DNA from: Blastocatellales bacterium
GTDB lineage: Bacteria > Acidobacteriota > Blastocatellia > RBC074
NCBI GenBank assembly: GCA_050187295.1
Contig: JBFWXQ010000001.1
Location: 27,574 to 91,573 of the forward strand
Length of the DNA stretch: 64,000 bases
Reading direction: 5' to 3'
The notes under the pieces are model-generated. The model had not been told where the DNA came from and ran no database searches. It was given only the letters and a program-made list of their open reading frames with translations. Shown here piece by piece: positions 30,806 to 48,175 of the stretch. The first letter of the stretch is position 1; every line of letters begins with the position of its first letter. The position numbers and the translations under genes are program-made.

Positions 30806-31059
30806 CTTGTGCGCTCCCATGATTTCTCGCGTTCACTATCTCCCTCTTGCCTCTCGCGAGAGACCCAGGCTTGAGCATCTTCTTCAGCCAGCGGATATGG
30901 GGCGGCACCCATAACGTCCAGCCAGTTGCGTTTTCCAGACTGTGTAGCAGATTTCTTTCGAGCTTGCTCAATCAATATTGAAGCTAGAGCCAACTGCTCA
31001 TCAGCGGATAGGGTCTCAACCTGGCTTAGAATTTCTTTTACTGTCGGAACCATAAGCAT
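30802..31059 (-). CDS. Putative antitoxin / addiction-module component (TIGR02574-like), TA pair 1
   Basis: 85 aa. 'VKEILSQVETLSADEQLALASILIEQ' resembles the addiction-module-component motif. Overlaps the PIN gene start. Confidence 0.5.
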   Translation of the reverse strand: MLMVPTVKEILSQVETLSADEQLALASILIEQARKKSATQSGKRNWLDVMGAAPYPLAEEDAQAWVSRERQEGDSEREKSWERTR

Positions 31060-31070
31060 TACTCCAAAAT

Positions 31071-31478
31071 CTAAATCACTTTCACGGCCAATCGGGCGGC
31101 GATGGAATTCAGCCGATCATCGTTGGCCCAGAATTCTGCGCATCCGTGATGCTGTGCTGCGGCCAAATGAATCGCGTCGGGCGTTTTGAGTTTCGGATGA
31201 TCGGCGCGCAGTTGAGCAGCTTTCTCGAAAATTGATCTGTTGATCGCAAGATAGTTCGCTCGTTGAAACCAGTTACGGAACTTGTCAATCACCGCCTGCT
31301 GTTGATTTCTAATGGGGATAACCAGGCATTCCATTTCTGACAAAGCTGTGTAAGCCAGGACTGAATCCGGGGAATGCTGCAATCGGGCTTCAATTGGCGA
31401 TCTGTATAACTGATGCTCCTCGACCAGATAAATGATGATGCAGGAATCAAGGTAAATAAGCGGCTGTGTTAATCCCAT
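31071..31478 (-). CDS. PIN-domain toxin (VapC-like), TA pair 2
   Basis: 'IYLDSCIIIYLVE…' with the conserved D. 'DAIHLAAA' motif. 135 aa. Confidence 0.75.
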   Translation of the reverse strand: MGLTQPLIYLDSCIIIYLVEEHQLYRSPIEARLQHSPDSVLAYTALSEMECLVIPIRNQQQAVIDKFRNWFQRANYLAINRSIFEKAAQLRADHPKLKTPDAIHLAAAQHHGCAEFWANDDRLNSIAARLAVKVI

Positions 31479-31717
31479 GAATTCCGCTCCTCTTCGATCT
31501 GCGCATCAATCTCTTCAGCGCTTCTGCGCATTTCTGAAGGGAGGCGGTTGGCACGCAGAAAAGCAAGAATCTCCGCCGCGTTCCCTTTGCCCGTAGTTGA
31601 TTCATCCGTCTCTTCGAGCAGTGTAACCAGCGCACGAGTAGGTTTGGTGAGCTTGACCGGTTCACACAAACGGACATTGCCATTTACATCAATTTCGGCT
31701 TCAACTGTTTGCAGCAT
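31469..31717 (-). CDS. Putative antitoxin (DUF104-like), TA pair 2
   Basis: 82 aa. 'TVEAEIDVNGNVRLCEPVKL' resembles the DUF104 antitoxin N-terminus. 10-nt overlap with the PIN gene. Confidence 0.5.
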   Translation of the reverse strand: MLQTVEAEIDVNGNVRLCEPVKLTKPTRALVTLLEETDESTTGKGNAAEILAFLRANRLPSEMRRSAEEIDAQIEEERNSWD

Positions 31718-31750
31718 AACTATTACCTCTCAAAACTTCTCGACCCATTT

Positions 31751-33421
31751 TTACTTCTTTGACTCCATCTCGCGCAACTCGCGGCGAAGAACCTTGCCGA
31801 CGGCGCTTTTCGGCAAGGCGGGAACTATTTCGATCACCGAAGGCACTTTGTATTTCGCCAGATTCGTTTTGCAAAACTCCGACAGTTCTTCGACCGTCGC
31901 CGATGCGCCGGGTTTCAGCACGACGAAAGCCTTGACCGCTTCGCCGCGATATTCGTCGGGAACGCCAATGACTGCGGCTTCCAGCACCGCCGGATGCGTG
32001 AACAAAACGTCTTCGACTTCGTTCGGATAAACGTTGAAACCGCTGACTATGATCATGTCTTTCTTGCGCTGGACTATGTAAAAGTAACCGTCTTCGTCCA
32101 TGCGCGCGACATCGCCTGTGTAAAGCCATCCGTCGCGCAAAGCGATGGCGGTTTCTTCTGGGCGGTTCCAATAACCTTTCATGACCTGAGGGCCGCGAAT
32201 GCAAAGCTCGCCTTCCTGGCCGAGCGGCACTTCCTGAGTTCCAGTTTCCAGATCAACGATTTTGACTTCGGTCGAAGGATATGTCAGCCCTATGCTGCCG
32301 GGTTTGCGGCGAGCCAGCGTCGGCGTCGAATGCGTGGTCGGCGATGTTTCCGTCAGTCCGTATCCTTCGTATAGCATTGCCCCGCTCATCTGTTCGAACT
32401 TTTCAATCACTTCAACCGGCAACGGAGCCGAGCCGCTGTTGAATCGCCGCACGTATTCCAGGCCGCAGGTTTTGATTTCAGGATGATTGAGCATGGAAAT
32501 GTACAGCGTCGGCACGCCCGGAAAGAAAGTCGGTCTGTAAGTTTTGATCGCTTGAATCAGCGCGTCGGGATCGAACTTCGGCACGGGAATCTGCATCGCG
32601 CCGGTCCAGGTTCCCAACAGCAAACCGACCGTCTGGCCGTAAATGTGAAAGTATGGGATGACCATCAGATAACGTTCGTCGCCGCGTTGAGTCAGTTCTT
32701 TGCCCCAGACGTATGATTGAATGACGTTCGAGTAAAGATTGAAATGCGTCAGCATCGCGCCTTTGGGAACGCCGGTCGTGCCGCCGGTGTATTGCAACAC
32801 GGCCACGTCTTCTTCTGGCGTGATGGAAACGCGCGGCAGAGAAATCCCCGCAACTTCGTTGATCAAAGCGGTGAGAGAAAGCGTGCCTTCTGGCGCGGGC
32901 GGCGCAGTTTCCGGCTTTGCCGAATATTCCTGAAGACTGGTGACGATGACGTTTTCAATCGCGGTGTTGGGTTGAACGCCAAGCACTGTCTGCGCCATCA
33001 GGTCGAGGACGATAATCGCCTTGATGCCGGAATCCTTCGCCACCATTTCGACTTCGCGTGGCGTGTAAATCGGATTGATGTTCGTGACAATAGCTCCCAA
33101 TCGAACGATGGCGAAAAAACCGATCAGATATTGCGGGCAGTTCGGCAACATAATGCCCACGCGGTCGCCTTTCGATACGCCCAGCTTCGCCAACGAAGTC
33201 GCCAACCGGTCAACCTGCGATTTGATTTCGCTGAAAGTCAGAAACGCGCCCAGAAAAGCCGTCGCTCTTTTGTCGCGAAAACTGCTGCTGGCGATTTGCA
33301 GAATCTGGTAAAGCTGCTGGCGCGGCATGTTCAATTCAGCCGGAACCCAGAAATCGTAATGTTTCAGCCAGGGTTTGGCGGCATACGGTGAACTGTTGGC
33401 ATTATCGGCAGTGTTTGTCAT
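31751..33421 (-). CDS. Long-chain fatty-acid--CoA ligase (AMP-binding enzyme)
   Basis: AMP-binding signatures '[16 protein letters not shown]' and 'YGLTETSP'. C-terminal '[10 protein letters not shown]'. 556 aa. Confidence 0.85.
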
Positions 33422-33455
33422 CGTTCAGTTTGATCTCCATTTTGATTTGGCCGGC

Positions 33456-34028
33456 TTATTTAATGCGTTTGGCTTCTTCCTGAATGACTTCATTCAGCGC
33501 GTTCATGATTTTGGGCATCATGATTTCGCCCGATTTCTGAATGCTATCGGTTGCCAGTTTCGGCATAATCTGAATCGTTTTTTTGCCCGTCGGGGTTCTG
33601 TAAAACACAAGCAGGTCTTTCAGCTCGTCTTCAGTGAAATATTTGTCGTATAACTCCAGGCTGATCTGTTCCAGCAACTCAGCGTAATTGATTGTCCCGA
33701 ACACCTTCTCTCGAAATGCCTTGAGCATTCGGTCTGAATATTTATTGTAATCGTTCTGCAAGGCCTCTCTTTGCCTGGGTGTCAATTTGTCTTCCGCCAT
33801 TTGCTGGGCCATCAACTGATTCATGATTCTGGGGAATTCCTGCTCCATCTGCATCATCATTGACCTGCTGGTGGCTTCTGCCAGTTTGACGGATTCGGTG
33901 ACTTCCAATAACTCTTTGATCAATGCACGCTTTTGTGGAGCGATAGCATTTTGGGAATAAGCCTGTGCGCAAAATGCCACGAGTAGCAAAATTATGCTGA
34001 AGATTGAAAAGGTTGTTTTGATTCTCAT
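33456..34028 (-). CDS. Secreted DUF2059-like protein
   Basis: Signal peptide. 'LLVFYRTPTGKKT' matches the DUF2059 core. 190 aa. Confidence 0.55.
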   Translation of the reverse strand: MRIKTTFSIFSIILLLVAFCAQAYSQNAIAPQKRALIKELLEVTESVKLAEATSRSMMMQMEQEFPRIMNQLMAQQMAEDKLTPRQREALQNDYNKYSDRMLKAFREKVFGTINYAELLEQISLELYDKYFTEDELKDLLVFYRTPTGKKTIQIMPKLATDSIQKSGEIMMPKIMNALNEVIQEEAKRIK

Positions 34029-34075
34029 TTATTCTCCATTTTCAGTTTGGCCGAAGAGCAATATTGCCATCAGAA

Positions 34076-35581
34076 TCACCTGATTGGTTTACCCCATTCG
34101 ACGGAATTTCGCAGGGTGGGTTTCAGAATCTTGCCGCCGGGATTGCGCGGCAACATTTCCGGGCGGATGACGACATATTGCGGGACTTTGAAATCGGCCA
34201 GATGTTTGCGCGCGAAGGCGATCAATTCTGATTCGTCAATTTGCTGGCCCGGCCGCGGCACAATCACCGCGCCGACTTTTTCGCCCATCACTTCGTCTGG
34301 AACTCCGATCACGGCGACTTCAAACACCGCCGGGTGAGCCGCCAGAGCGTTTTCAACCTCGACGCAATAAACGTTTTCGCCGCCGCGACAGATCATGTCC
34401 TTTTTGCGATCAACTATGTAAACGAAACCTTCCGGGCTGATGCGAGCCATATCGCCCGTATGCAACCATCCATTGACGAAAGCGGCTTCAGTCGCTTCGG
34501 GCTTGTTCCAATAACCTTTGACGACGTTGGCTCCGCGAATCAGCAATTCGCCGACGCCGCTTTCTTGATCAACCTCGAACAATTGCAAATCCACAACCGG
34601 AGCGGCGAAACCAACCGAATCGGCATGTTCGCGCGAATATTCGTGCGGCAGAAAAGTCGCCACCGACGAGGTTTCGGACAATCCGAATCCATTGCCGACG
34701 CGGGCGTTCGGGAAAGCTTCGATCAGTTTGCCGACCAGTTCCGGCGCAATCGGCGCTCCGCCGTAAGTCAGCCAGCGAACGTGGCTGACATCGTATTCCT
34801 TGAAATTCGGCTGACTGATTGCCAGCCAATGAATTGCCGGGACAGTGGTCACGGAATTTGTCCGTTCTTCAACCATCGCTTTCAGATATTCCTGGACGTT
34901 GAACGCGGGCATGATCACCGAAGCGCTGCCGGTAGCACAGCAGCAAAGAAACTGCGAATTGCATCCCGTGACGTGAAACAGCGGAACCGAAATCAATGTG
35001 CGAACGCTGCCATCGGTTGGCAGGTTGACGACGCGAACGCAGTTTTCGTTGTTGGTCAGAAAATTGGCGTGAGTCGTAATCGCGCCTTTCGGAAAGCCCG
35101 TCGTGCCGCTGGTGTAAAAAATGGCGGAAGCGTCTTCGGCCTGCAAATCTTCAACCGCGAAAGGCGAGCCATCCGGCAATGCTTCGCCCGGCTTGAAAGA
35201 ATACTTCGAGCCTGAATCGTTGATGACATATTCGACTTCAGGTTCGGCAAAACGCGTGTTTACCGGAACCGCAATCGCGCCCGCCAGTTGAATGCCAAAG
35301 AAAGCCAGGCACCAATCCAAACCGTTGCCTAGCTGAATCGCCACGCGGTCGCCGCGATTGATGTCCATGGCTTTCAAACCGCCGGCCACGCGCGCCGCTC
35401 GATCCCAAAGCTGTTGGTAATTGACGCGCTCGCCGCCGAGTTCGACAACGGCTTCAGCGTTCGGCGATTTGTCGGTCGTAGCTCGCAACATTTCGACCAG
35501 CGAGTTCTGCATGTTGTCATATCGCAAAATGCCGTCCGTTCCGCGAATCGTGCCTGAATAATCGAATGGGCGAATCATCAA
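34076..35581 (-). CDS. Acyl-CoA synthetase / AMP-dependent ligase
   Basis: 'YTSGTTGFPKGAITTH', 'GLSETSS', 'GWLHTGD'. 501 aa. Confidence 0.85.
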   Translation of the reverse strand: MMIRPFDYSGTIRGTDGILRYDNMQNSLVEMLRATTDKSPNAEAVVELGGERVNYQQLWDRAARVAGGLKAMDINRGDRVAIQLGNGLDWCLAFFGIQLAGAIAVPVNTRFAEPEVEYVINDSGSKYSFKPGEALPDGSPFAVEDLQAEDASAIFYTSGTTGFPKGAITTHANFLTNNENCVRVVNLPTDGSVRTLISVPLFHVTGCNSQFLCCCATGSASVIMPAFNVQEYLKAMVEERTNSVTTVPAIHWLAISQPNFKEYDVSHVRWLTYGGAPIAPELVGKLIEAFPNARVGNGFGLSETSSVATFLPHEYSREHADSVGFAAPVVDLQLFEVDQESGVGELLIRGANVVKGYWNKPEATEAAFVNGWLHTGDMARISPEGFVYIVDRKKDMICRGGENVYCVEVENALAAHPAVFEVAVIGVPDEVMGEKVGAVIVPRPGQQIDESELIAFARKHLADFKVPQYVVIRPEMLPRNPGGKILKPTLRNSVEWGKPIR

Positions 35582-36555
35582 TAAGCTCCTTGTGTTTCAA
35601 AAATCCTGCGCGGGTTTTCAACCAGCATGGTGTTCAATTGTTCGTCCGTCACTCCGCGCGATTTCAACGCCGGAATCACGTCGTTGTGAATGTGCAGGTA
35701 ATGCCAGTTCGGCAACACGACGGGCAGCGCGCGTTCCGGCAACCAGTCGTTGACGCAGGCAGCATCGTGCGACAAAACCATTTTATCGGCGTGGCCGCGT
35801 TCGCACATTTTGGCAACCGTGTTCACGCGGTCTTCAAACGGCAGCAAGGTGTCTATGCCAAAACGATCCATGCCGATGTAAGAACCGTTGGCGATTAATT
35901 CTTCCAGGTAGCCGATGTCGGTCGTGTCTCCACTGTGGCCGATGACGACGCGCGAAAGGTCGACACCTTCTTCTGCAAAAATCCTCTGCTGTTCCAATCC
36001 TCGCCGGGTGTGAGCGTGCGTGTGAGTCGAAATCGGCACTCCGGTCTGACGATGCGCCTGAGCCGTTGCTCTGAGCACGCGTTCAATGCCCGGAGTCACG
36101 CCCGGTTCGTCCGTCGCGCATTTCAACATACCGGCTTTGATTCCGGTGTCGGCGATTCCCTCAGTGATGTCGCGGATGAACATTGCGGTCATCAATTCAT
36201 CGCCGCCCAGAATTGTCCCGGGCCCCTGAAAGTGAAAATAAAACGGCAGGTCATTGTATGTGTAAACGCCCGTCGCGACGATGATGTTGATTTCGGTTTG
36301 AGCGGCGATGCGCTGGATGCGCGGAATGTAACGGCCAAGCCCGATCACGGTCAGATCAACGACGGTGTCAACTCCGCGAGCCTTCAATTCGTTCATTCGC
36401 TCAACGGCGTCGGCAATGCGTTTTTCTTCGTCTCCCCACTGTTCGGGAAAGTTCTGCATGATTTCTGTCGAAAGCACAAAGATGTGTTCGTGCATCAGCG
36501 TCACGCCAAGCTGCGATGTGTCAACCGCGCCGCGCACGGTGTTGATTGATGGCAT
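35578..36555 (-). CDS. Phosphotriesterase-family (PTE/Php) metal-dependent hydrolase
   Basis: 'GVTLMHEHIFV' HxH metal site near the N-terminus. Start at MPSINTV (ATG 36555) after AGGAGA. 4-nt ATGA overlap with the upstream ligase gene. Confidence 0.8.
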   Translation of the reverse strand: MPSINTVRGAVDTSQLGVTLMHEHIFVLSTEIMQNFPEQWGDEEKRIADAVERMNELKARGVDTVVDLTVIGLGRYIPRIQRIAAQTEINIIVATGVYTYNDLPFYFHFQGPGTILGGDELMTAMFIRDITEGIADTGIKAGMLKCATDEPGVTPGIERVLRATAQAHRQTGVPISTHTHAHTRRGLEQQRIFAEEGVDLSRVVIGHSGDTTDIGYLEELIANGSYIGMDRFGIDTLLPFEDRVNTVAKMCERGHADKMVLSHDAACVNDWLPERALPVVLPNWHYLHIHNDVIPALKSRGVTDEQLNTMLVENPRRIFETQGAY

Positions 36556-36720
36556 TGTTTTGATCTCCTGTTGAAACGCGTGAAGCAGGCCTGAACCGCC
36601 TTGCCCGATTGGCGCGGTATTTTGGAATAGACCCGCTAAGTTGACAAGCAAGCCGCTGATTCATTCGTCCATAGCACGATTGTATTTGGTGTGGTTTGAG
36701 AGAATGTTCATAGAGAATGT

Positions 36721-36892
36721 TCATATAGTTAGCTCCGTCAGGAGCGACCTGTTTATAGCTTTGGTTTAGCAATTTCCTTATAGCAGTTTTCAGGTGAGTG
36801 CGACTTATACACGCGGGAATAGTAGGACAGGTTAATAACCTGTCCTACTATCGGGTCGCGCCTGACGGAGCTACCACCCGCGCAAACTACTT
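36721..36892. repeat. Palindromic MITE/REP-like element upstream of the NACHT gene. Contains the 45-nt core shared with 13778-13822.
   Basis: 'TAGCTCCGTCAGGAGCGACCTGTTTATAG' at 36721 pairs as an inverted repeat with 'GTCGCGCCTGACGGAGCTA' at 36857-36875. The end 'GGAGCTACCACCCGC' matches the end of the 40.8-kb copy. Confidence 0.5.
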
Positions 36893-37005
36893 TTGTGCCT
36901 CAGTTCTTTTCTTCCCGCTGTGTTAAACTTCGCGCCGCCGCAGAAGCCTCAAGCGGCAGCAACCGACGCCAAACTTCAACCACGAATCCGGGCAAGTGAA
37001 CCCTT

Positions 37006-40000
37006 ATGAGCTATCCCAACCGCGACATCTTTCTGACGCAGACCGAACAAGACCGATTGCGAAAACTGTTCGATGAAAAGAAGGTCAAACCCATCACAGA
37101 CTTTCTTTCAAAAGCCGTCGAACAGGTCAAAGACGGCAAGGGCTGGGCTGAATCCTTTCTGGCCGCCGCTCCGTGGATGGCCGACATAGCCGAAGCCGTT
37201 GGAACCGCGCTGCCGATTATCGGCGCAGCCGTCAAGTTGATCGAGAAATGGCTGGAGCCTGAGTTGTGGGAATTGGGAGCGATTGCCTGCACTCTGGCTT
37301 ATCAATCGGCGGTTCGCGATGCGCTTGAAGCCGAAAAATCTTCGTCCGTGGATCAATACCGCGCGGGCAAAAAGATTGACGCCAAAATCGTCCGCCAAAT
37401 CAGAGATGCCTCGCCAGCCGAACAAGCCGACCTGAGTACCTTTTCATTCGAAGACGCAGCCAATCACGTTTTCGTTCGTCGAGCTGACCGCGCTCTGGAA
37501 ATCGCGCTTGATGCGGCTGGTTTTGACGCAAAACAGCAAGCCGGAATCTTTAATCGTGTCCACGATGGTTTTGTTGAAAAGCTGAAACTGTTGCTGTCTG
37601 ACCGCCGGACCGCCGAAAAGTTCGAGCCATTCCATAAAGCCATAAATGAACTGGGTAACGAAGAGAAGCGGGCGCATATCGCTCTGGCCACTCACGCCGA
37701 ATATCAGCGAGAACAGTATGAAGCCGCGCCGGTCTTTCGCTTTGAACCATTCGCGCTGAAAGACGTTTACGTCGAAACCGAATGCGGCGTGCTGGAATGG
37801 CGGGAAATCAAAAAGCATATGGACAAACGGCAGGCTCACGACGGCGAACCGGCAGAGCGCGACTTTTCTCCGTTCAGTCCAAAGCACGGCGGGCGGCATA
37901 ACCTGATTAATACGGTGATGGGTTTTATTCGCGATCCCGATTTCAAAGAAGCCATCGTTCTGCAGGGAGAAACGGGCGCGGGGAAATCTTCCTTCACCAT
38001 TCGTCTCAGCACCGAATTGCTCAATGCCGGATTCTGTCCAATTCGCGTCAGGCTAAAAAAGTTGCGTTTGGGCGAACCGCTGATCGAATCACTGCCGGAT
38101 GCCATCGAACTCGGCGACGAAGATCGGCTGGCGAAAAACCCGCTGACCAAACCGCGAGACATGCTGTTGGGCGGGCGAATTTTCAATGAACGATATGGCA
38201 CGACGAACCTGTGCCGATACGTTTTGATTTTGGACGGTTGGGACGAATTGAGTCTGGCCGACAACAAAAGCTTCCGCGACAACGTACAGGAAATGTTGCG
38301 GCAAGTGCGAGACGAATTCTGGGGCGGTAAATACTCCACGCTGGTTCGTGTCCTTGTCACCGGACGGCCATCGAATGAAGTGGGAGAGGATAAATACTTC
38401 CTGCGCTCTGAAACCAAAATCCTGACGATGCGGCGGATGAAGTCTGCCCAACTTAGCCAACTTGTCGGCGCGATGAAAACCGCGCTGGAAACTCAGCCGG
38501 TTTACACCGAAAACGAAGCCACCTGGCAGATTACCGACCTGACAAAGTTCGAGCCTGTTTTCAATGACAACATAAAATTCTTAGATGAAGAAGAGGCCTT
38601 ACGGTTGGAAGTTTTGGGTTCGCCATTGCTGGCTTATCTGGCGATTCGAGTGATGGCCGAAACCGAAGGCGATCTGACCGAACTGATCAATCAACCAACA
38701 CGGCTTTATCGCGAACTGACCGATCTGACCTGCGGCGGCGCCGGCAAATACATTGCGGACAAACGCGACAAACCCGGCGAGCGCGATGTCTGGTGGCGAA
38801 CCGAACAGCCCAAATTGCGCCGTTTGTTGCAACGCACGGCGGCGGCGATGACCATCAACGGCAAGGAATACATTTCAAAAGAACAATTGTTGCGCCGCGT
38901 TTTTGACGACGGCGAAAACGACGAAGCTGACGACATCATCGCCCAGGCAGAGCGCGAATCTTCGCTGTCCAGGCTGATGGTCAGTTTCTTTTTCAAAGGC
39001 GGTCATCCTGAAATGGGTTGCGAGTTTTCGCATAAATCCTTCCGCGAATATCTGACTGCCGAATGCATTGTCGAAGTGTTAAAGGATTTCGGACACCGTA
39101 GCGATGGTTTTGATTTCCGGCGACGCCCGAAACCGGAGCGGGATTTTTTGTCGAATGGCGACGACCCGCGACATGAATTTTCCCGGCGATTGTCTGAACT
39201 GCTGGCTCCACAATGGTTGAAGTGGGAAGTCATCGGATATCTGGGCGAATTGCTGCGATGGGAAATTCAACGCAGCCGTAACGGTACGGAGAGCGTGAGC
39301 GACCCGGACCTGACTCGGGTCGCTCACGCTCCCCGTACTGCATCGCCGTCAGCCAATACCTTTCGCCAATGGGAACAGATTCGTGACGGGCTGGCCGACT
39401 TGTGGGAATGGTGGGTTGACGGAGCGCATCTGCGACCCCAATGGGAGGGAAAAGGCAAGAAGCGCTATATTGTTCCGGCATATGTTCACGATTTGATCAA
39501 ATGGTCTGCGCCGCTGGATGAACAGGAAACATACGATCAATCCATTGGCTTTGAAACTGCTACGGCAATGGACGCGCATATGGGCGACGGGTTGTTCAGG
39601 CTTTGTGCCTGGGTGCATTTTTTTATTGCCGAAGCCGATGGTTGGCTGGAAGAACAAGAAGAGGAAAAACAAATAACACCAAGTATTTTATCGGGAAAAA
39701 CCATAGCTCCCTCTCAACGTTACTATCAAAGTTTAACCATACGAGAAAAACGGGAATGGCGAGTCTTTGCACCTTCTGGGATCAGATGGGAGTCTTTCGA
39801 TCACATCATTGCCCGTATCAACTCCGATTCAAGCCGCCCCGGATGGTTATTTCCTTCGAATAGCAACTTGTCTGGAATTGATTTTAGTAATACACGGTTG
39901 GCTGGTACACTCCTTGATGACTCAATCCTAAAATGGGCCAATCTCAGTAATACCACTCTCCGACGTGCAGCACTTTATAGTGTAAATTTTGAAGGCGCAT

Positions 40001-40329
40001 TTCTTGATTGGGCAAGTCTAGAACACGCACGACTTGACGGCGCTATCCTCGACCGCGCTCGCCTCTCCGGCGCTCGCCTCTCCGGCGCTAGCCTCGACGG
40101 CGCTAGCCTCGACGGCGCTAGCCTCGACGGCGCAGACTTATCAGATGCTCGTAATCTGACACGAGAGCAGATTGAGAGCGCGCACATTGACGAACACACG
40201 CAATTGCCCAAGGAGTTCGAGCAGTTGAAACAGGAGATGCTGGCGCGACAGCGGCATGCGGAATCGGAATCGGAAGAGTTGGAGATTGAAGAAGAGTCGG
40301 ATGAATTGGATGACGACGGCGAATCTTGA
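37006..40329 (+). CDS. STAND/NACHT-family P-loop NTPase with an N-terminal helical domain of unknown function, C-terminal pentapeptide repeats and an acidic tail
   Basis: Walker A 'GETGAGKSS' and Walker B 'YVLILDGWDEL' (the NACHT hhhhDGxDE form). More than 20 pentapeptide repeats 'A(N/D)LSN / ARLSG / ASLDG' at aa ~960-1060. Tail 'ESESEELEIEEESDELDDDGES'. Hydrophobic stretch 'FLAAAPWMADIAEAVGTALPIIGAAVKLI' near the N-terminus. Confidence 0.7.
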   Translation: MSYPNRDIFLTQTEQDRLRKLFDEKKVKPITDFLSKAVEQVKDGKGWAESFLAAAPWMADIAEAVGTALPIIGAAVKLIEKWLEPELWELGAIACTLAYQSAVRDALEAEKSSSVDQYRAGKKIDAKIVRQIRDASPAEQADLSTFSFEDAANHVFVRRADRALEIALDAAGFDAKQQAGIFNRVHDGFVEKLKLLLSDRRTAEKFEPFHKAINELGNEEKRAHIALATHAEYQREQYEAAPVFRFEPFALKDVYVETECGVLEWREIKKHMDKRQAHDGEPAERDFSPFSPKHGGRHNLINTVMGFIRDPDFKEAIVLQGETGAGKSSFTIRLSTELLNAGFCPIRVRLKKLRLGEPLIESLPDAIELGDEDRLAKNPLTKPRDMLLGGRIFNERYGTTNLCRYVLILDGWDELSLADNKSFRDNVQEMLRQVRDEFWGGKYSTLVRVLVTGRPSNEVGEDKYFLRSETKILTMRRMKSAQLSQLVGAMKTALETQPVYTENEATWQITDLTKFEPVFNDNIKFLDEEEALRLEVLGSPLLAYLAIRVMAETEGDLTELINQPTRLYRELTDLTCGGAGKYIADKRDKPGERDVWWRTEQPKLRRLLQRTAAAMTINGKEYISKEQLLRRVFDDGENDEADDIIAQAERESSLSRLMVSFFFKGGHPEMGCEFSHKSFREYLTAECIVEVLKDFGHRSDGFDFRRRPKPERDFLSNGDDPRHEFSRRLSELLAPQWLKWEVIGYLGELLRWEIQRSRNGTESVSDPDLTRVAHAPRTASPSANTFRQWEQIRDGLADLWEWWVDGAHLRPQWEGKGKKRYIVPAYVHDLIKWSAPLDEQETYDQSIGFETATAMDAHMGDGLFRLCAWVHFFIAEADGWLEEQEEEKQITPSILSGKTIAPSQRYYQSLTIREKREWRVFAPSGIRWESFDHIIARINSDSSRPGWLFPSNSNLSGIDFSNTRLAGTLLDDSILKWANLSNTTLRRAALYSVNFEGAFLDWASLEHARLDGAILDRARLSGARLSGASLDGASLDGASLDGADLSDARNLTREQIESAHIDEHTQLPKEFEQLKQEMLARQRHAESESEELEIEEESDELDDDGES

Positions 40330-40680
40330 TCCGCCAATTTTCTGTTGGCGCTACCGTACTTTGTATGGGTGAAAACCGCATCTGCGGCTGCGGCTGCCTG
40401 ATGTGCGGAAGGTCTTTGACCTTCCGGCATTGCTTTCAATTTCTCCTGGGGCTACGCCCCGACCGCTGGGGCATAGGCCCAAAATCATCGCCCATTTACC
40501 GGTATGGCTAAGCTATACCACACATCGGGCGGCGAAGCCGCGAAATCTTACCTGCTGAAATTATGGAATGTCGTGATTTCCCATCCTTCAAGTGCAACTG
40601 CTTGACGATTGGCGAGGCTGGCTCTTAAACTCCGACGCTAAAGCAATCAAATCAAATCCGGCACTACCGAATTTGTGTGG

Positions 40681-40845
40681 GTTGTAGTTCCGTAGGAACG
40701 ACCTGTTTATAGTTATCAGGGTGACAGATCTTGAAGCTCCGTCAGGAGCGACCTGTGACCAGAGATCGCTCCTGACGGAGCTTTGTGGAAATTGAATAGC
40801 TCCATCTATAAACAGGCCGCTCCTGATGGAGCTAACCACCGCCAA
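40681..40845. repeat. Palindromic MITE/REP-like element, same family as 36721-36892
   Basis: Perfect 17-bp hairpin 'AGCTCCGTCAGGAGCGA…TCGCTCCTGACGGAGCT' (40735-40782). Outer inverted repeat 'cgacctgtttatag' / 'ctataaacaggccgc'. Ends 'GGAGCTAACCACCGCC'. Confidence 0.5.
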
Positions 40846-41038
40846 TTCCCACACCAATCACCGTAGCGCCTCAAAATTCAAACAGACTGGAACGCGGGCA
40901 ATGCCGTCATTCGTTGGCAATAGCAGTGAAATCAACCGCAGACTCTTTGCTGCTGCGCCGCCTGATGTGCGGAAGGCCTGTGGCCTTCCGGGTAATTGAA
41001 AAGATATTGAAGTCAAGAAGATGATTTTCCGATCAGAA

Positions 41039-41227
41039 CCCCGGAGGGGTGAAAAGAAATTAGCCCAGGGTGAAACCCTGGGTGTAGTTAGCAAAGTTTC
41101 CAAGCCCCAGCGGGGCGACAGACGTCGCTATTCCGAAGGTGCTTCTACCGCCCCGCTGGGGCTTGAATGGTTAATGGCCTCGTTCCCCGGATTGCATCCG
41201 GGGCTATCCTCTTGCTGTCCCTCCGAG
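41039..41227 (+). ncRNA. Candidate GC-rich structured RNA of unknown family (~190 nt)
   Basis: Closing helix CCGGAGGG(41042) with CCCTCCG(41219). Hairpin CCCAGGG-tgaaa-CCCTGGG. Perfect 13-bp long-range helix AGCCCCAGCGGGG(41103-41115) with CCCCGCTGGGGCT(41151-41163), enclosing hairpin GCGAC-aga-CGTCGC. Hairpin CCCCGGA-ttgca-TCCGGGG. No ORF with an RBS. Strand not determined. Confidence 0.3.
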
Positions 41228-41410
41228 ACTTTCTTCTGAAGTTCATTCTCTTAAATGCTATATCATTTGCGCGCAAGCAGCACTCCTTATCGAGGATGGT
41301 GATGATGCAGTCATAGCCACCAATAACGTTGCCCATCTGTCATTATTTGCGCCTGCTGTTCTTTGGCAAGATATTCAATAACTTAAATCCAAGAGCTTTG
41401 AACCCTATGC

Positions 41411-41440
41411 TTGACGATTGGCGAGGCTGGCTCTTAAACT
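41411..41440 (+). promoter_or_regulatory. Sigma-70-like promoter candidate upstream of acnA; a second copy is at 40602-40631
   Basis: TTGACG (41411-41416), 17-nt spacer ATTGGCGAGGCTGGCTC, then TTAAAC/TAAACT. The identical 36-nt string occurs at 40602-40637. Confidence 0.35.
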
Positions 41441-41528
41441 CCGGCACTACTGCAATTAAATCAAATCCAAACAGACTGGAGCGCAGTCACCGTCCGCGTT
41501 CCAGCTTCAAATCAGGTGAAAACAGCAA

Positions 41529-45640: not shown

Positions 45641-48175
45641 ATGCGTTTGAGCTTGCCTGCAATGCTTGGGCGGGTGCTGATCTGCGTCAGTCTGTCGCTC
45701 TTGTTATTTACAAAACCTGCTGCGCCGACCCAGGCACAGAGCAGCAGCGTCATTGTCGCCCGCGTTACCATCAAATCGTCAGAAGCTATGAATCGCTTTG
45801 TGCGTCTGGGGCTGGACGTTTTGGAAACTCGCGACGGCGATGACCTGTTTGTCGCGGTGTCATTGCAGCAATTCAATGAACTGCAAAATCAGGGCTGGCA
45901 GATAAAGGTTGAAACAGAGCAAACGCGTTTGTTAAGTCAACTGACGCCGAACACTTTTCAAGGTGGTTATCACACGGTCGGTGAAATCCGTCAGATGCTG
46001 GAATCCAAAGCGGCGCAGTTTCCCAATCTGGCAGAGTTTTTCATTTATGGCCAAAGCTGGAAGAAGATCAACTCCGGCGGAGCTTTGGGCGAAGATTTGT
46101 TTGGCATCAGGCTGACGAATCGCCAGATTTCAGGGAACAAGCCTGTCTTGTTGCTTCACGCGGCAATTCATGCGCGCGAACTGACCACGGCGGAATTGGC
46201 CTGGCGTTTTGTTGATTACCTGCTGACCAATTATGGCGTGAATGGCGATGTGACCTGGTTGCTGGACGAACATCAGATTGTGATCATTCCACAGGGGAAT
46301 CCGGACGGACGCGCGTTGGCAGAGCAGGGTTATTACCAGCGCAAGAACGTCAATGATTCATATGGCGGAAATTGTTCCAATCCGCCAACCGTCTTTGATC
46401 AATTTGGCGTAGACCTGAACCGCAACAACAGTTTCAAATGGGGAGTTGTCAATACTCCCGGTGAAGACAAATGCGGTCAGACTTACCCTGGGCCATCCGC
46501 CGCATCTGAGCCGGAAACAGCCGCTTTTCATACTCTGGTCAGGTCTTTGTTCCCGGATCAACGTGGCCCGCTGGATACAGACCCTGCGCCATCAACTGCG
46601 ACCGGAATCATGTTATCGCTTCACTCTTATGGCAATCTGGTTTTATGGCCCTGGGGATGGACGGCCAATCAATCACCGAATTATCCGGATTTGTCCAGAA
46701 TAGGCGGAAAGTTCGGCGCTTACACCGGGTTCACTTCACAACCGTCTTCCCAATTGTATCCGTCGTCCGGTTCCACGACAGATTGGCTTTATGGCGAGTT
46801 GGGCGTTGCTTCATTCACATTTGAGGTTGGATCGGATCAGGGAACTTGCGGTGGATTCTTTCCATCTTATTCGTGTCTGGACGGCAATGCTGAGGGGAAT
46901 TTCTGGGGACGGACGTTGCCTGCTTTTTTATATGCTGCACGAATCGCACGGACTCCCTATCAATTGGCGCAAGGGCCGACGGCTGAATCGGTATCGACAA
47001 TTTCCCTGAGCAATGGGGCATTTGAAATCAACGCGCAACTGAGCGAGCAGTTCAACGGCAACCAGAACATCGTTGCGGCTGAGTATTATGTTGATGTTCC
47101 TCCCTGGCGCGGAGGAATCGGATTGCCGATGGTTGCCAATGACGGAAGTTTCAATAGTCCTCTTGAAAATGCGAAAGCGTCTACCAGCGCACTGTCAGCG
47201 GGCAGACATCAGGTGTTTGTTCGCGCTCAGGATAGTTTGGGAAATTGGGGGCCGGTCAGAGCTGTCTTTGTGGACAGCGCCGGTCGTTTGCACGCGGCGA
47301 AAAGTGATTTCGACGGCGATGGCAGAACGGATTTTGCTGTCTGGCGCGGTATGACGGGTAATTGGTCGATTCTGCAAAGTGGTGATAACGCTTTGCGGAA
47401 TGTCGTTTGGGGAACATCGCAATCGCCCGATAACGACCAACCAGTGCCCGGAGATTATGACGGCGATGGCAAGTTCGACATCGCCGTCTGGCGGTCATCA
47501 ACCGGGGAATGGTTGATCGCGAATAGTGGAGGCGGAACTCAGAGTTTCACTCTCGGCTCGCCCGGCGATGTCCCTGTTCCGGCTGATTACGATGGTGATG
47601 GGAAGACTGATCCGGCGGTTTGGACTGGAGCCAGCGGCCACTGGCTGATCAAACGGAGCAGTGGAGGCGCAATCCAGACGATCAATTGGGGCACATCGGC
47701 GGCGCCGTATTTCGATCTGCCTGTGGCTGGTGATTACGACGGCGATGGGAAGGCCGATGCCGCCGTCTGGCGGCAAGGGGACGGAAAATGGTACGTCCTG
47801 AAAAGCTCAACCGGTCAGTATCAAATAACCGCCTGGGGGGCTGCTTACTCGCCTTATCTTGATGTCCCTGTGCCGGGTGATTACGACGGAGATGGAAAAT
47901 TCGATATTGCCGTCTGGCGCAGAGGCAATGGAACCTGGTTTGTGCTTCGCAGTTCGGATGGCAATTTTCGTATGATGAATTGGGGCGCTGCGCAAACTCC
48001 ATACAATGATGTGCCTGTGCCGGGTGATTACGATGGCGATGGAAAATACGATATTGCCATCTGGCGGCCTTTGGACGGTAATTGGTATGTAATCAAAAGT
48101 TCCAATGGTGGATGGATCATCCAGAATCAAGGTCAGAATGGCGACGTTCCGGCGCCAGCGAGTGGTGTCAGGTAA
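45641..48175 (+). CDS. Secreted M14 zinc carboxypeptidase fused to a C-terminal ~7-blade FG-GAP/VCBS-like propeller
   Basis: Signal peptide. M14 motifs 'HAREL' (HxxE zinc) and 'SLHSYGNLVLWPWG'. Seven repeats 'DFDGDGRTDFAVWR / DYDGDGKFDIAVWR…'. Terminal 'GDVPAPASGVR*'. Confidence 0.8.
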   Translation: MRLSLPAMLGRVLICVSLSLLLFTKPAAPTQAQSSSVIVARVTIKSSEAMNRFVRLGLDVLETRDGDDLFVAVSLQQFNELQNQGWQIKVETEQTRLLSQLTPNTFQGGYHTVGEIRQMLESKAAQFPNLAEFFIYGQSWKKINSGGALGEDLFGIRLTNRQISGNKPVLLLHAAIHARELTTAELAWRFVDYLLTNYGVNGDVTWLLDEHQIVIIPQGNPDGRALAEQGYYQRKNVNDSYGGNCSNPPTVFDQFGVDLNRNNSFKWGVVNTPGEDKCGQTYPGPSAASEPETAAFHTLVRSLFPDQRGPLDTDPAPSTATGIMLSLHSYGNLVLWPWGWTANQSPNYPDLSRIGGKFGAYTGFTSQPSSQLYPSSGSTTDWLYGELGVASFTFEVGSDQGTCGGFFPSYSCLDGNAEGNFWGRTLPAFLYAARIARTPYQLAQGPTAESVSTISLSNGAFEINAQLSEQFNGNQNIVAAEYYVDVPPWRGGIGLPMVANDGSFNSPLENAKASTSALSAGRHQVFVRAQDSLGNWGPVRAVFVDSAGRLHAAKSDFDGDGRTDFAVWRGMTGNWSILQSGDNALRNVVWGTSQSPDNDQPVPGDYDGDGKFDIAVWRSSTGEWLIANSGGGTQSFTLGSPGDVPVPADYDGDGKTDPAVWTGASGHWLIKRSSGGAIQTINWGTSAAPYFDLPVAGDYDGDGKADAAVWRQGDGKWYVLKSSTGQYQITAWGAAYSPYLDVPVPGDYDGDGKFDIAVWRRGNGTWFVLRSSDGNFRMMNWGAAQTPYNDVPVPGDYDGDGKYDIAIWRPLDGNWYVIKSSNGGWIIQNQGQNGDVPAPASGVR

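What the first reader, a model, noticed from the sequence alone, without database searches (positions are those of the whole stretch)
36721..40845. NACHT/STAND NTPase with pentapeptide-repeat sensor and acidic DNA-mimic-like tail, bracketed by palindromic MITE-like repeats: a candidate defense/NLR-type module
The 1,107-aa protein has three parts. An N-terminal ~300-aa helical domain of unknown function carries a hydrophobic helix. A NACHT-type P-loop follows, with GETGAGKS and hhhhDGWDEL. The C-terminal ~100 aa are tandem pentapeptide repeats (ANLSN/ARLSG/ASLDG ×>20) ending in a poly-Glu/Asp tail. Bacterial STAND ATPases (Avs/bNACHT) usually carry TPR or WD40 sensors. A pentapeptide-repeat sensor (the Qnr/MfpA DNA-mimic fold) plus an acidic tail is an unusual architecture. 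It could sense, or itself mimic, nucleic acid. The gene is monocistronic. It is flanked on both sides by copies of one palindromic repeat family (36721-36892 and 40681-40845). Two VapBC-like TA pairs lie ~6 kb upstream, and a repeat-laden non-coding region lies downstream. That context is typical of defense islands.
Basis: partly seen in the sequence, partly recalled or inferred. Interest (0 to 1): 0.8.

Follow-up and report, generated by a model that had tools for sequence, protein, structure and literature searches.

The report
Fast-evolving bacterial NLR with pentapeptide sensor
This gene encodes a bacterial relative of animal NLR immune receptors with an already catalogued but untested domain layout, and near-identical soil-bacterium strains carry deeply different versions of it whose repeat "sensor" end changes fastest, as expected of an immunity or self-recognition gene.

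Summary
The 1,107-aa ORF (37006-40329, +) is real. Its layout is NNH3 helical domain, then NACHT ATPase, a Trp-rich middle domain, 20 pentapeptide repeats, a cap helix and an acidic tail. The architecture is not unusual. NNH3/NNH4+NACHT+Pentapeptide is what rows numbered 9 (read as the clade) share in Table S1 of Kibby et al., and NNH3 is a Pfam family. No pentapeptide member appears to have been tested. The defence-island and DNA-mimic ideas are not supported: neighbours are metabolic genes, and the repeat domain is short and only mildly acidic. The flanking palindromes are real, but they belong to a REP/REPIN-like hairpin family found across phyla. Three sister genomes have the gene without them. 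The new observation is evolutionary. Five related genomes hold this gene in the same phosphotriesterase|NACHT|aconitase slot, in two allele classes only 44-49% identical. The nearest strain has flanks 96-100% identical (dS about 0.1) but a gene centre with saturated dS (1.5). Between vertically related alleles, dN/dS is 0.03-0.18 over NNH3, NACHT and the middle domain, but 1.0 in the pentapeptide array. Repeat number also varies from 16 to 25. Verdict: a new member of a known kind, probably a single-gene conflict sensor. Moderate interest.

The parts
37006..40329 (+). Complete ORF, 1107 aa: NNH3 - NACHT - middle domain - pentapeptide array - cap helix - acidic tail
   Evidence: ORF list. Identical to an NCBI MAG protein from a Blastocatellales bacterium, and more than 120 full-length homologues exist. 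AlphaFold model has pLDDT 82.5 and pTM 0.78.
37006..37875 (+). NNH3 (NACHT N-terminal helical domain 3), aa 1-290; conserved hydrophobic Gly/Ala-rich segment at aa 55-79 (nt 37168-37242)
37891..39105 (+). NACHT module (NBD-HD-WHD), aa 296-700. Walker A GETGAGKS at nt 37966-37989; Walker B LILDGWDEL at 38224-38250; VTGRPS at 38356-38373; WHD motif CEFSHKSFREYL at 39019-39054
   Evidence: The motifs are invariant across 44-74 homologues, with coordinates. Foldseek top hits are NLRP3, NOD2 and NLRP9 (E 6e-10 to 1e-7). Pfam NACHT is hit by 38 of 44 family members, but is below cut-off in this protein.
39106..39840 (+). Conserved Trp-rich helical middle domain, aa 701-945, with a variable disordered loop at aa 760-778
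   Evidence: Invariant residues W737, W789, W800, W802, W803. Helices have high pLDDT except aa 763-779. No Pfam or PDB sequence match.
39284..39338 (.). 55-nt palindrome inside the ORF (23-nt arms, 96% complementary), encoding the variable loop GTESVSDPDLTRVAHAPRT
   Evidence: Inverted repeat I4. The loop is indel-rich in the alignment and is shared with P0002. Low pLDDT at aa 763-779.
39856..40155 (+). Pentapeptide-repeat array, 20 repeats (about 5 coils), aa 951-1050: the putative sensor
   Evidence: Pfam PF00805 at 6e-18. PDB profile hits are only to pentapeptide proteins. The model has a strand every 5 residues. dN/dS is 1.01 against 0.03-0.18 for the upstream domains. Repeat number is 16-25 among alleles.
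40036..40133 (+). 15-nt tandem DNA repeat (6.5 copies, 89% matches) within the pentapeptide array
   Evidence: Tandem Repeats Finder and the repeat finder family D1.
40156..40326 (+). Cap motif LTREQIESAHIDEHTQLPKEF, a long helix, then the acidic tail (aa 1086-1107, nt 40261-40326)
   Evidence: The cap motif is conserved in close homologues, whereas the tail has conservation 0.19-0.31 and a gap fraction of 0.33-0.55. Helix 1069-1100 is predicted. Net charge of the last 23 aa is -14.
40406..40436 (+). Terminator-like hairpin 77 nt after the stop codon
   Evidence: Consensus scan: 9-bp stem, 6 GC pairs, T-rich tail. Such sites are not enriched in the region overall.
36728..36873 (.). Upstream REP/REPIN-like doublet: units at 36728-36758 (+) and 36845-36873 (-), with an inner palindrome at 36819-36851. 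The left edge of the divergent segment (about 36849) lies inside it.
40684..40836 (.). Downstream nested quadruplet of the same hairpin units (+40684-40712, +40734-40757, -40760-40783, -40806-40836)
41101..41165 (.). Variant doublet of the hairpin unit (stem GCCCC/GGGGC)
   Evidence: Inverted repeat I7; sequence.
36850..41490 (.). Hyper-divergent segment relative to the sister strain L003: gene plus both spacers
   Evidence: blastn HSP edges at 36849 and 41491. In 300-nt bins, identity is 87-100% (mostly 94% or more) outside and 14-74% inside. dS is 0.09-0.12 in the flanks and 1.48 in the gene centre.

Best explanation
The gene encodes a stand-alone bacterial NLR-related (bNACHT) protein with the NNH3-NACHT-pentapeptide architecture. 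It most likely acts as a single-gene intracellular conflict sensor.

Proposed mechanism:
1. The C-terminal pentapeptide beta-helix (about 5 coils, with its cap helix) is the ligand-recognition surface. It diversifies by surface substitutions and by gain or loss of 15-nt repeat units.
2. Ligand binding releases the NACHT ATPase (intact Walker A, Walker B, sensor-1 Arg and WHD His) to exchange nucleotide and oligomerise.
3. Oligomerisation brings the N-terminal NNH3 helical domains together as the output, either as an effector or as an adaptor of unknown chemistry.

Shown here: the architecture, motif conservation, NLR-like fold, allele-class replacement at a syntenic slot, and domain-specific dN/dS.

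Inferred: that the trigger comes from a phage or other invader, that the protein oligomerises, and what NNH3 does.
For: Architecture and classification:
- Pentapeptide passes the Pfam cut-off.
- Homologues hit NNH3 and NACHT above cut-off. Of 44 family members, 42 hit Pentapeptide, 38 NACHT and 13 NNH3 at E<=0.001.
- G321, G324, G326, K327, S328, D410, G411, W412, E414, G453, R454, P455, E673, F674 and F679 are invariant in both alignments. D413 and H676 are invariant in the 44-sequence set and at least 90% conserved in the 74-sequence set.
- Foldseek top hits are NLRP3, NOD2 and NLRP9.
- Kibby et al. list pentapeptide repeats as an 'antigen receptor type' sensor of bacterial NACHTs. Rows numbered 9 in their Table S1 are NNH3/NNH4+NACHT+Pentapeptide.
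- NNH3 occurs almost only at the N-terminus of ~1000-1200-aa proteins: 245 clusters in 1.84 billion.

Conflict-type evolution:
- Five genomes share the PTE|NACHT|acnA slot.
- Flank proteins are 83-99% identical to the window's, while the NACHT protein is 48-64% identical. There are two allele classes, 44-49% identical to each other, and their distribution disagrees with the flank phylogeny.
- Window vs L003: flank dS is 0.09-0.12 and gene-centre dS is 1.48, with sharp boundaries at 36849 and 41491.
- The alleles are mosaic: aa 1-100 are 88-90% identical and the tail 77-87%, but aa 101-1050 only 42-49%.
- Class-B pair L003 vs L210: gene dS (0.47) matches the flanks. dN/dS is 0.025-0.18 for NNH3, NACHT and the middle domain, but 1.01 for the pentapeptide array.
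- Repeat number is 16-25. Inward-facing repeat positions change least. The 15-nt units have high internal conservation.
Against: - No experiment exists for any pentapeptide-bearing bNACHT. No row numbered 9 in Table S1 carries a tested-gene label, and no later paper was found.
- PADLOC has no hit.
- The neighbourhood is metabolic, both here and in distant homologues. There are no defence genes beyond ubiquitous PIN and HigB toxin-antitoxin genes.
- No presence/absence polymorphism was found in the slot.
- NNH3 has no recognisable effector fold, so the output is unknown.
- dN/dS near 1 in a repeat array can also come from relaxed constraint, repeat misalignment or concerted evolution. Only a crude positional test was possible.
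- Placement among Kibby's clade-9 sequences was inferred from architecture, not from a tree.
Confidence: 0.6

Rival explanations
1. Kin or self/non-self recognition (allorecognition) rather than anti-phage defence. The two deep allele classes and the repeat-shuffling sensor would be maintained by balancing selection, as with fungal het-d/het-e NLRs. Recognising a non-self cell's component would trigger growth arrest or death.
For: - Two allele classes, 44-49% identical, sit at one syntenic slot and are incongruent with the flank phylogeny.
- The centre shows saturated dS within a 96-100% identical background.
- The repeat units have high internal conservation and vary in number.
- The family is concentrated in Blastocatellia, Polyangia (Sorangium) and cyanobacteria. 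Kaur et al. link such lineages with multicellular-type conflict systems.
- The fungal NLR literature describes the same signatures.
Against: - No partner or ligand locus was identified.
- Only five genomes were sampled, and both classes were never seen in a single population sample.
- Bacterial NACHTs tested so far are anti-phage.
- Allele replacement by recombination explains the pattern equally well.
Confidence: 0.15
2. One reading: the pentapeptide beta-helix plus acidic tail is a DNA mimic of the Qnr/MfpA type. It would act as the output, or as bait for a DNA-binding protein such as gyrase or a phage DNA-binding factor.
For: - Weak partial hits to MfpA and Qnr models, and PDB profile hits to MfpA and QnrB1.
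- Kaur et al. note that pentapeptide repeats can inhibit DNA-binding proteins.
- The last 23 aa carry a net charge of -14.
Against: - Scores are 21-22 bits against cut-offs of 240-360.
- The array has only 20 repeats (about 5 coils) and a net charge of -4.
- It is the fastest-evolving, length-variable part of the protein. That is unexpected for a mimic of invariant B-DNA aimed at a conserved host enzyme.
- The acidic tail is not conserved across the family.
Confidence: 0.07
3. A housekeeping or regulatory STAND ATPase (a signal-transduction switch) that belongs to the core genome of this Blastocatellales lineage. Its rapid change would reflect weak constraint.
For: - The position between phosphotriesterase and aconitase is conserved in several genomes.
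- There are no defence neighbours and no empty site was seen.
- The family is chromosomal, with no phage hit and only one distant plasmid hit.
Against: - The slot association is confined to a narrow lineage. Among 80 loci with PTE orthologues, those with enough upstream sequence show neither NACHT nor aconitase beside PTE.
- The centre's dS is more than 10 times that of the flanks, which indicates replacement, not drift.
- There is strong purifying selection on the NBD (0.10) and on aa 1-100 (0.025), but about 1.0 on the sensor only.
- Distant homologues sit in unrelated contexts with no conserved partner.
Confidence: 0.1
4. A mobile cassette: the gene is carried by, or was inserted with, the flanking palindromic MITE-like repeats.
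For: - The repeat cores occur only at this locus within the 64-kb window.
- The left edge of the divergent segment lies inside the upstream palindrome.
Against: - L210, L008 and L001 have the gene in the same slot with short or repeat-free spacers (213, 219 and 201 nt) and no repeat units.
- The left unit of the upstream doublet lies in the conserved flank shared with L003.
- The units form local nested hairpin doublets, not one pair of terminal inverted repeats around the gene.
- The same unit family is scattered through genomes of many phyla.
Confidence: 0.03

Closest known systems
Bacterial NACHT (bNACHT) rows numbered 9 in Table S1 of Kibby et al. (bioRxiv 10.1101/2022.07.19.500537): NNH3/NNH4 + NACHT + Pentapeptide proteins of Nostoc, Anabaena, Symploca, Leptolyngbya, Vibrio, Runella and others
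   Same: - Same three-part order and similar size: NNH3 at about aa 1-250, NACHT at about aa 300-700, and pentapeptide repeats after a 100-250-aa linker.
- Homologues of the window protein hit the same Pfam NNH3 model.
- Full-length homology reaches a cyanobacterial member (P0108, Xenococcus; 34% identity over 93% of the query).
   Different: - This is an Acidobacteriota (Blastocatellales) member, a phylum not among the clade-9 rows read.
- Tree placement was not tested.
- It carries an acidic C-terminal tail.
- The population-level allele replacement and the sensor-specific dN/dS were not found described in the papers read.
Experimentally characterised bNACHT proteins (bNACHT01, 16, 25 and others) and animal NLRs (NLRP3, NOD2, NLRC4)
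   Same: - NACHT motifs: Walker A, D-G-h-D-E Walker B, TGRP, and FxHxSFxEY in the WHD.
- NLR-like fold.
- Tripartite logic of effector, switch and sensor.
   Different: - The sensor is a pentapeptide beta-helix, not LRR, TPR or a short C-terminal domain.
- The N-terminal domain has no known enzymatic or Death-fold relative.
- PADLOC models do not detect it, and there is no PDB sequence match outside the repeat array.
Fungal NLRs with highly internally conserved (HIC) repeats (het-e, het-d and similar; Ament-Velasquez & Saupe 2026, PMC13449251)
   Same: - Near-identical tandem repeat units in the sensor (15-nt period, 89% matches).
- Repeat-number variation among alleles.
- Elevated dN/dS and replacement of alleles between close lineages.
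   Different: - The repeat type is pentapeptide. The HIC surveys quoted covered WD40, ANK, TPR and LRR only.
- The organism is a bacterium.
- No allorecognition phenotype is known.
Qnr / MfpA / AlbG pentapeptide DNA mimics
   Same: Right-handed quadrilateral beta-helix built of A(D/N)LXX repeats.
   Different: - It is a fused C-terminal domain of only about 5 coils.
- Scores are far below family cut-offs.
- It is weakly acidic and evolves fast.
REP/REPIN elements (repetitive extragenic palindromes), compared for the flanking repeats
   Same: - Short GC-rich hairpin units with a conserved tail containing GTAG.
- Arranged as inverted doublets in intergenic DNA.
- Several copies in some genomes.
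- Compensatory changes in the stem.
   Different: - The same 19-nt core is exact across many phyla. As I recall, classical REPs are species-specific.
- No associated RAYT transposase was examined.
- No Rfam family matches.

Membership tests
NACHT clade of STAND NTPases | Walker A GxxxxGK[ST] | tested here: met
   GETGAGKS at aa 321-328. G321, G324, G326, K327 and S328 are invariant in 74 homologues.
NACHT clade of STAND NTPases | Walker B followed by acidic residues (hhhhD-G-h-D-E) | tested here: met
   LILDGWDEL at aa 407-415. D410, G411, W412 and E414 are invariant; D413 is at least 90% conserved in the 74-sequence set and invariant in the 44-sequence set. That this motif defines NACHT is from my own knowledge (Koonin & Aravind 2000).
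NACHT clade of STAND NTPases | Sensor-1 Arg in a T/S-x-R-P motif, and the WHD motif FxHxSFxE[FY] with the conserved His | tested here: met
   VTGRPS at aa 451-456, with G453, R454 and P455 invariant. CEFSHKSFREYL at aa 672-683, with E673, F674 and F679 invariant and H676 at least 90% conserved.
NACHT clade of STAND NTPases | Pfam PF05729 at or above the gathering score | tested here: not met
   19.2 bits against a cut-off of 26.7 in this protein. It is met in homologues P0037, P0046 and P0063, and 38 of 44 family members hit at E<=0.001.
NACHT clade of STAND NTPases | NBD-HD-WHD fold closest to NLR NACHT modules | tested here: met
   Foldseek with the full-length model (pLDDT 82.5): the top 19 hits are NLRP3, NOD2 or NLRP9, E 6e-10 to 8e-7.
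bNACHT clade 9 (Kibby et al.) | N-terminal NNH3 or NNH4 domain | tested here: met
   The window protein itself has no direct Pfam NNH3 hit at E<=1. Its aa 6-290 are 68% identical to P0004, which hits NNH3 at 29.9 bits (cut-off 27). 13 of 44 members hit NNH3.
bNACHT clade 9 (Kibby et al.) | C-terminal pentapeptide repeats after the NACHT module | tested here: met
bNACHT clade 9 (Kibby et al.) | Phylogenetic placement of the NACHT module inside the clade | not tested
Placement is inferred from the shared architecture only.
Pentapeptide repeat family | Tandem A(D/N)LXX repeats above the Pfam cut-off, folding as a quadrilateral beta-helix | tested here: met
   PF00805 at 64.5 bits against 20.2. 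20 repeats in register. Model strands every 5 residues with pLDDT about 96. PDB profile hits down to E 3e-41.
Qnr/MfpA-type DNA mimic | Membership by NCBIfam equivalog score | tested here: not met
   MfpA 22.5 bits against a cut-off of 360; Qnr 21.3 against 240.
Qnr/MfpA-type DNA mimic | Long, strongly electronegative helix of DNA-like dimensions | tested here: not met
   About 5 coils and net charge -4 over aa 946-1050. Dimerisation and surface potential were not computed.
Known anti-phage defence systems (PADLOC-DB v2) | Match to any defence-protein model | tested here: not met
   0 families at E<=1. NCBIfam gives only a 12.6-bit P-loop-level hit to an anti-phage model.
Defence island context | Neighbouring genes are defence systems or mobile elements | tested here: not met
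   The neighbours are acyl-CoA synthetases, DUF2059, phosphotriesterase, aconitase, SpoU, M14 and S8 peptidases. Two PIN genes lie 5.5-6.6 kb away. Homologue contexts are equally non-defence.
MITE carrying or bracketing the gene | The gene and its terminal repeats occur together as one unit | tested here: not met
   The gene is present without repeat units in L210, L008 and L001. The repeats form local doublets. Target-site duplications were not assessed.
REP/REPIN-like repeats | Short hairpin unit, inverted doublets, intergenic, multi-copy, covarying stem | tested here: met
   An associated RAYT transposase was not tested.
HIC (high internal conservation) repeat NLRs | Near-identical tandem repeat units in the sensor domain | tested here: met
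   15-nt period, 6.5 copies, 89% matches at 40036-40133. This covers only the last third of the array.

The most novel reading that the evidence does not exclude
The PTE|NACHT|acnA slot of this Blastocatellales lineage would be a bacterial counterpart of fungal and plant NLR polymorphism. Two ancient allele classes would be kept by balancing selection or repeatedly exchanged between species. The pentapeptide beta-helix would be a new kind of HIC sensor that makes new specificities by shuffling 15-nt repeats. NNH3, with its conserved hydrophobic hairpin at aa 55-79, would be a previously unrecognised cell-death or membrane-targeting output domain.
Probability: 0.2. Interest if true: 0.7.

Novelty: new member of a known kind. 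Interest (0 to 1): 0.4.

Why it matters
The pentapeptide-bearing bacterial NACHT group is catalogued, but nobody appears to have tested it. What a pentapeptide beta-helix senses, and what the NNH3 domain does, are both open questions.

This locus offers a natural comparison. Strains that are nearly identical elsewhere carry alleles from two deep classes. Within a class, change is concentrated on the outward faces and in the copy number of the pentapeptide repeats. That points to the repeat array as the specificity determinant and identifies which residues to swap in experiments.

It does not reveal a new kind of system.

Tried and rejected
- The afdb50 fold library was unavailable.
- A PDB sequence-profile search found only pentapeptide proteins and no NLR.
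- PADLOC gave nothing. NCBIfam gave only sub-threshold pentapeptide hits.
- Rfam on the locus found no family for the palindromic repeat. The microRNA-type hits are chance matches to hairpins.
- An exact-protein look-up of the M14 peptidase returned a contig that stops short of the locus.
- A metagenome scan with the flanking phosphotriesterase aimed to find more alleles or an empty site. It returned only more distant Acidobacteria in which neither NACHT nor aconitase lies beside PTE, so no empty site was found.
- The 430-aa N-terminal extension of the atypical member P0237 has no Pfam domain, so it gives no clue to NNH3's role.
- Phage and plasmid collections gave no phage hit and one distant plasmid hit.
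- I rejected the idea that the internal palindrome is a recent insertion specific to this allele, because the closest allele P0002 shares the loop sequence.

Full report
**1. What is in the sequence**

The window holds one long ORF at 37006-40329 (+) of 1107 aa. It is identical to a protein of an NCBI metagenome-assembled genome annotated 'pentapeptide repeat-containing protein [Blastocatellales bacterium]' (P0001).

Pfam on the protein gives Pentapeptide well above its cut-off (64.5 vs 20.2 bits). NACHT falls below its cut-off (19.2 vs 26.7 bits, aa 317-487). PADLOC returns nothing. NCBIfam returns only weak partial pentapeptide matches.

- GETGAGKS at aa 321-328.
- LILDGWDEL at aa 407-415.
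- VTGRPS at aa 451-456.
- CEFSHKSFREYL at aa 672-683.

The last two are, from my own knowledge of NACHT proteins, the sensor-1 Arg motif and the winged-helix His motif.

**2. Family and architecture**

More than 120 full-length homologues exist, 1000-1200 aa long and 33-67% identical. They come from Blastocatellia, Pyrinomonadaceae, Thermoanaerobaculia, Polyangium, Sorangium and cyanobacteria.

In alignments of 74 and of 44 sequences, conservation runs along the whole protein. The invariant or near-invariant residues include the Walker A, Walker B, GRP and FxHxSF motifs, and a set of tryptophans in the middle region.

Several homologues hit Pfam NNH3 ('NACHT N-terminal Helical domain 3') and NACHT above the curated cut-offs. 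Of 44 members scanned one by one, 42 hit Pentapeptide, 38 hit NACHT and 13 hit NNH3.

The window protein's aa 6-290 are 68% identical to P0004, which passes the NNH3 cut-off.

An exhaustive phmmer search with aa 1-290 against 1.84 billion representatives found only 245 relatives. Nearly all are N-terminal domains of ~1000-1200-aa proteins. NNH3 is therefore a dedicated module of this architecture.

**3. Structure**

The full-length AlphaFold model is confident (pLDDT 82.5, pTM 0.78). Its parts in order:
- a helical N-terminal domain;
- an alpha/beta NBD with helical and winged-helix parts;
- a helical middle domain;
- a small beta sheet;
- a region with one strand every five residues over aa 955-1050, as in a pentapeptide beta-helix;
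- a cap and a long C-terminal helix.

Foldseek against PDB puts NLRP3, NOD2 and NLRP9 first (E 6e-10 to 8e-7), followed by pentapeptide proteins.

**4. Comparison with what is known**

Kibby et al. ('Bacterial NLR-related proteins protect against phage', bioRxiv 10.1101/2022.07.19.500537) name pentapeptide repeats among the 'antigen receptor type' sensors of bacterial NACHT proteins. They name NNH among the N-terminal domains.

In their Table S1, the rows whose last column is 9 (which I read as the clade number) are NNH3 or NNH4 + NACHT + Pentapeptide proteins. They come from Nostoc, Anabaena, Symploca, Leptolyngbya, Vibrio, Runella and others. None of those rows carries a tested 'bNACHTxx' label.

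No paper in the library combines 'bNACHT' and 'pentapeptide' from 2023 onwards.

So the architecture is catalogued, not unusual, but appears to be functionally untested. I did not place the protein in their tree, so membership of that clade rests on shared architecture.

**5. Context**

The gene is flanked by two acyl-CoA synthetases, DUF2059 and a phosphotriesterase-family gene on one side. On the other side lie aconitase, a SpoU methylase and M14 and S8 peptidases.

Two PIN-domain genes with small upstream ORFs lie 5.5-6.6 kb away. This is not a defence island.

The gene is divergent from the phosphotriesterase gene. A terminator-like hairpin sits 77 nt after the stop codon, and a 1.2-kb spacer precedes aconitase. 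These fit a monocistronic unit.

Distant homologues sit in unrelated, mostly housekeeping neighbourhoods with no conserved partner gene. The family is absent from the phage collection and gives one distant plasmid match.

**6. The flanking repeats**

The 19-nt core AGCTCCGTCAGGAGCGACC occurs five times in the window with up to 3 mismatches. All five copies flank this gene, and none is expected by chance.

The unit is a 5-bp hairpin followed by GACCTGTTT(A/G)TAG. Units form an inverted doublet upstream (36728-36873) and a nested quadruplet downstream (40684-40836). A variant doublet lies at 41101-41165.

The exact core is present in more than 117 stretches of genomes from many phyla. The stem shows compensatory changes between copies. 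No Rfam family matches.

A strict scan finds no unit in the spacers of three sister loci that carry the gene in the same slot: L210, L008 and L001. Spacers there are as short as 201-219 nt.

The repeats are thus REP/REPIN-like spacer insertions and not part of a mobile NACHT cassette. One detail remains: the left edge of the divergent segment lies inside the upstream palindrome.

**7. The new observation: allele replacement at a syntenic slot**

L003 (ENA contig; protein P0007) has the same gene order over 19 kb. Nucleotide identity to the window, in 300-nt bins:

| Window region | Identity to L003 |
|---|---|
| 31721-36820 (left flank) | 87-100%, mostly 94% or more |
| Across the gene | 45-74% |
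| 40421-41320 (downstream spacer) | 14-35% (largely unalignable) |
| From about 41620 (right flank) | 95-100% |

The blastn edges of the divergent segment are at 36849 and 41491.

Independent assemblies support the junctions:
- L006 and L007 reproduce the window's left junction at 100% identity.
- L004 reproduces L003's right side.
- Three contigs (L210-L212) cover the whole slot for a third genome.

Protein identities to the window:

| Locus | PTE | Aconitase | NACHT protein |
|---|---|---|---|
| L003 | 98.8% | 99.3% | 49% |
| L210 | 93.2% | 95.2% | 48% |
| L008 | 90.5% | not covered | 64% |
| L001 | not covered | 83.3% | 64% |

Two allele classes emerge. Class A is the window, L008 and L001 (64-73% identical to each other). 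Class B is L003 and L210 (82%). Identity between classes is 44-49%. The nearest genome carries the most distant allele.

Synonymous divergence between the window and L003 is 0.09-0.12 in three flanking genes. It is 1.48 (saturated) over aa 101-1050 of the NACHT gene, 0.31 over aa 1-100 and 0.21 over the tail. The centre therefore has a different ancestry, and the alleles are mosaic. This matches the protein identities: 88-90% for aa 1-100, 77-87% for the tail and 42-49% in between.

In more distant Acidobacteria the phosphotriesterase-synthetase pair is kept, but no NACHT or aconitase lies beside it. The slot association is therefore specific to a narrow lineage. No empty site was found.

**8. 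Where selection acts**

The class-B pair L003 vs L210 has gene dS (0.47) similar to the flanks (0.36-0.42), so those two alleles look vertically related. dN/dS values:

| Gene or domain | dN/dS |
|---|---|
| PTE (flank) | 0.12 |
| Aconitase (flank) | 0.07 |
| aa 1-100 | 0.025 |
| NNH3 | 0.16 |
| NBD | 0.10 |
| HD/WHD | 0.17 |
| Middle domain | 0.18 |
| Pentapeptide array | 1.01 |
| Tail | 0.70 |

The class-A pair L008 vs L001 shows the same ranking.

Repeat number differs among alleles: 16, 18, 20, 22 and 25. In the L003 vs L210 comparison, the inward-facing positions change in 9-10 of 25 repeats. The two most variable outward-facing positions change in 18-19 of 25.

The last third of the window's array is a 15-nt tandem repeat with 89% matches. 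This resembles the highly internally conserved repeats described for fungal NLR sensors. The survey I read covered WD40, ANK, TPR and LRR only.

Caveats:
- The per-position comparison was ungapped and crude.
- Repeat arrays are prone to misalignment and concerted evolution.
- dN/dS near 1 is also what relaxed constraint gives.

**9. Interpretation**

The best reading is a stand-alone NLR-type conflict sensor. The pentapeptide beta-helix would be the variable recognition surface, NACHT the nucleotide-driven switch, and NNH3 the output of unknown chemistry.

The classification is well supported. The immune or self-recognition role is inferred from the family's known members and from the evolutionary signatures. 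The output is unknown.

The DNA-mimic idea is not supported. The array is short (about 5 coils), weakly acidic (net -4), far below Qnr/MfpA family scores and the fastest-changing part of the protein. The acidic tail is not conserved.

A housekeeping role is hard to square with a gene centre whose dS is more than ten times that of its flanks, and with sensor-specific dN/dS. Allorecognition remains a live alternative to anti-phage defence.

**10. Verdict**

This is a new member of a known kind. Its claim of an unusual architecture, the defence-island context, the MITE bracketing and the DNA-mimic idea are not supported.

The finding gains moderate interest from the allele-class replacement at a syntenic slot, and from the concentration of change in the pentapeptide array. 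Both make the sensor hypothesis directly testable.

Noticed in passing
window 36728-36873, 40684-40836, 41101-41165; loci L009-L125: The ~28-nt hairpin unit (A-GCTCC-GTNA-GGAGC-GACCTGTTTRTAG) belongs to a repeat family whose 19-nt core is exact in genomes of many phyla: Ignavibacteriota, Bacteroidota, Acidobacteriota, Planctomycetota/Brocadiaceae, Verrucomicrobiota, Chlorobi and Acidimicrobiia. The stem covaries between copies, and the typical element is a ~150-nt nested-doublet. No Rfam family matches. Translated, the units give spurious 'YKQVAPDGA'-type ORFs.
   Followed up: partly
window 41037-41082 (-): Near-threshold match to Rfam Acido-Lenti-1 sRNA (RF01687): 35.6 bits against a gathering score of 37, E 1.7e-5. 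It lies in the repeat-laden spacer between the NACHT gene and aconitase.
   Followed up: no
window 40599-40659 and 41408-41468: A 61-nt direct repeat (92% identical), each copy holding the same promoter-like TTGACG-18-TAAACT. The two copies bracket the ~750-nt repeat-rich segment. The second copy lies about 60 nt upstream of the aconitase start codon, and L003 appears to have a single copy. This suggests duplication of the aconitase upstream region around an insertion.
   Followed up: partly
window 39284-39338: A 55-nt near-perfect palindrome inside the NACHT ORF encodes a disordered, indel-rich loop (aa 760-778). It shares the GAGCGACC core with the flanking hairpin units and may be an old hairpin-element insertion tolerated in a loop.
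   Followed up: partly
L001 13492-14260: In the sister locus L001, a HigB-toxin gene and a second small gene are inserted between the NACHT gene and aconitase. The same spacer therefore accepts different insertions in different lineages.
   Followed up: no
L128 6160-6804: A small gene with a faint Y1 transposase (IS200/RAYT-like) signal lies directly upstream of the distant family member P0046. This may be relevant to REP-like elements near these genes.
   Followed up: no
window 134-7186 (+): A 2350-aa FG-GAP/VCBS-type repeat protein sits in a region of about 60% GC, against about 52% for the rest of the window. Two further FG-GAP-bearing peptidases lie at 45641-48175 and 48210-51719.
   Followed up: partly
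window 32621-33220: Within the otherwise 95-100% identical left flank, identity to L003 dips to 87-90% inside the second acyl-CoA synthetase gene. This is a second, small patch of local divergence between the two strains.
   Followed up: no
window 30359-31683 (-): Two tandem PIN-domain (VapC-like) genes, each preceded by an 78-85-aa ORF with no Pfam match. The same arrangement is present in the independent assembly L006.
   Followed up: partly
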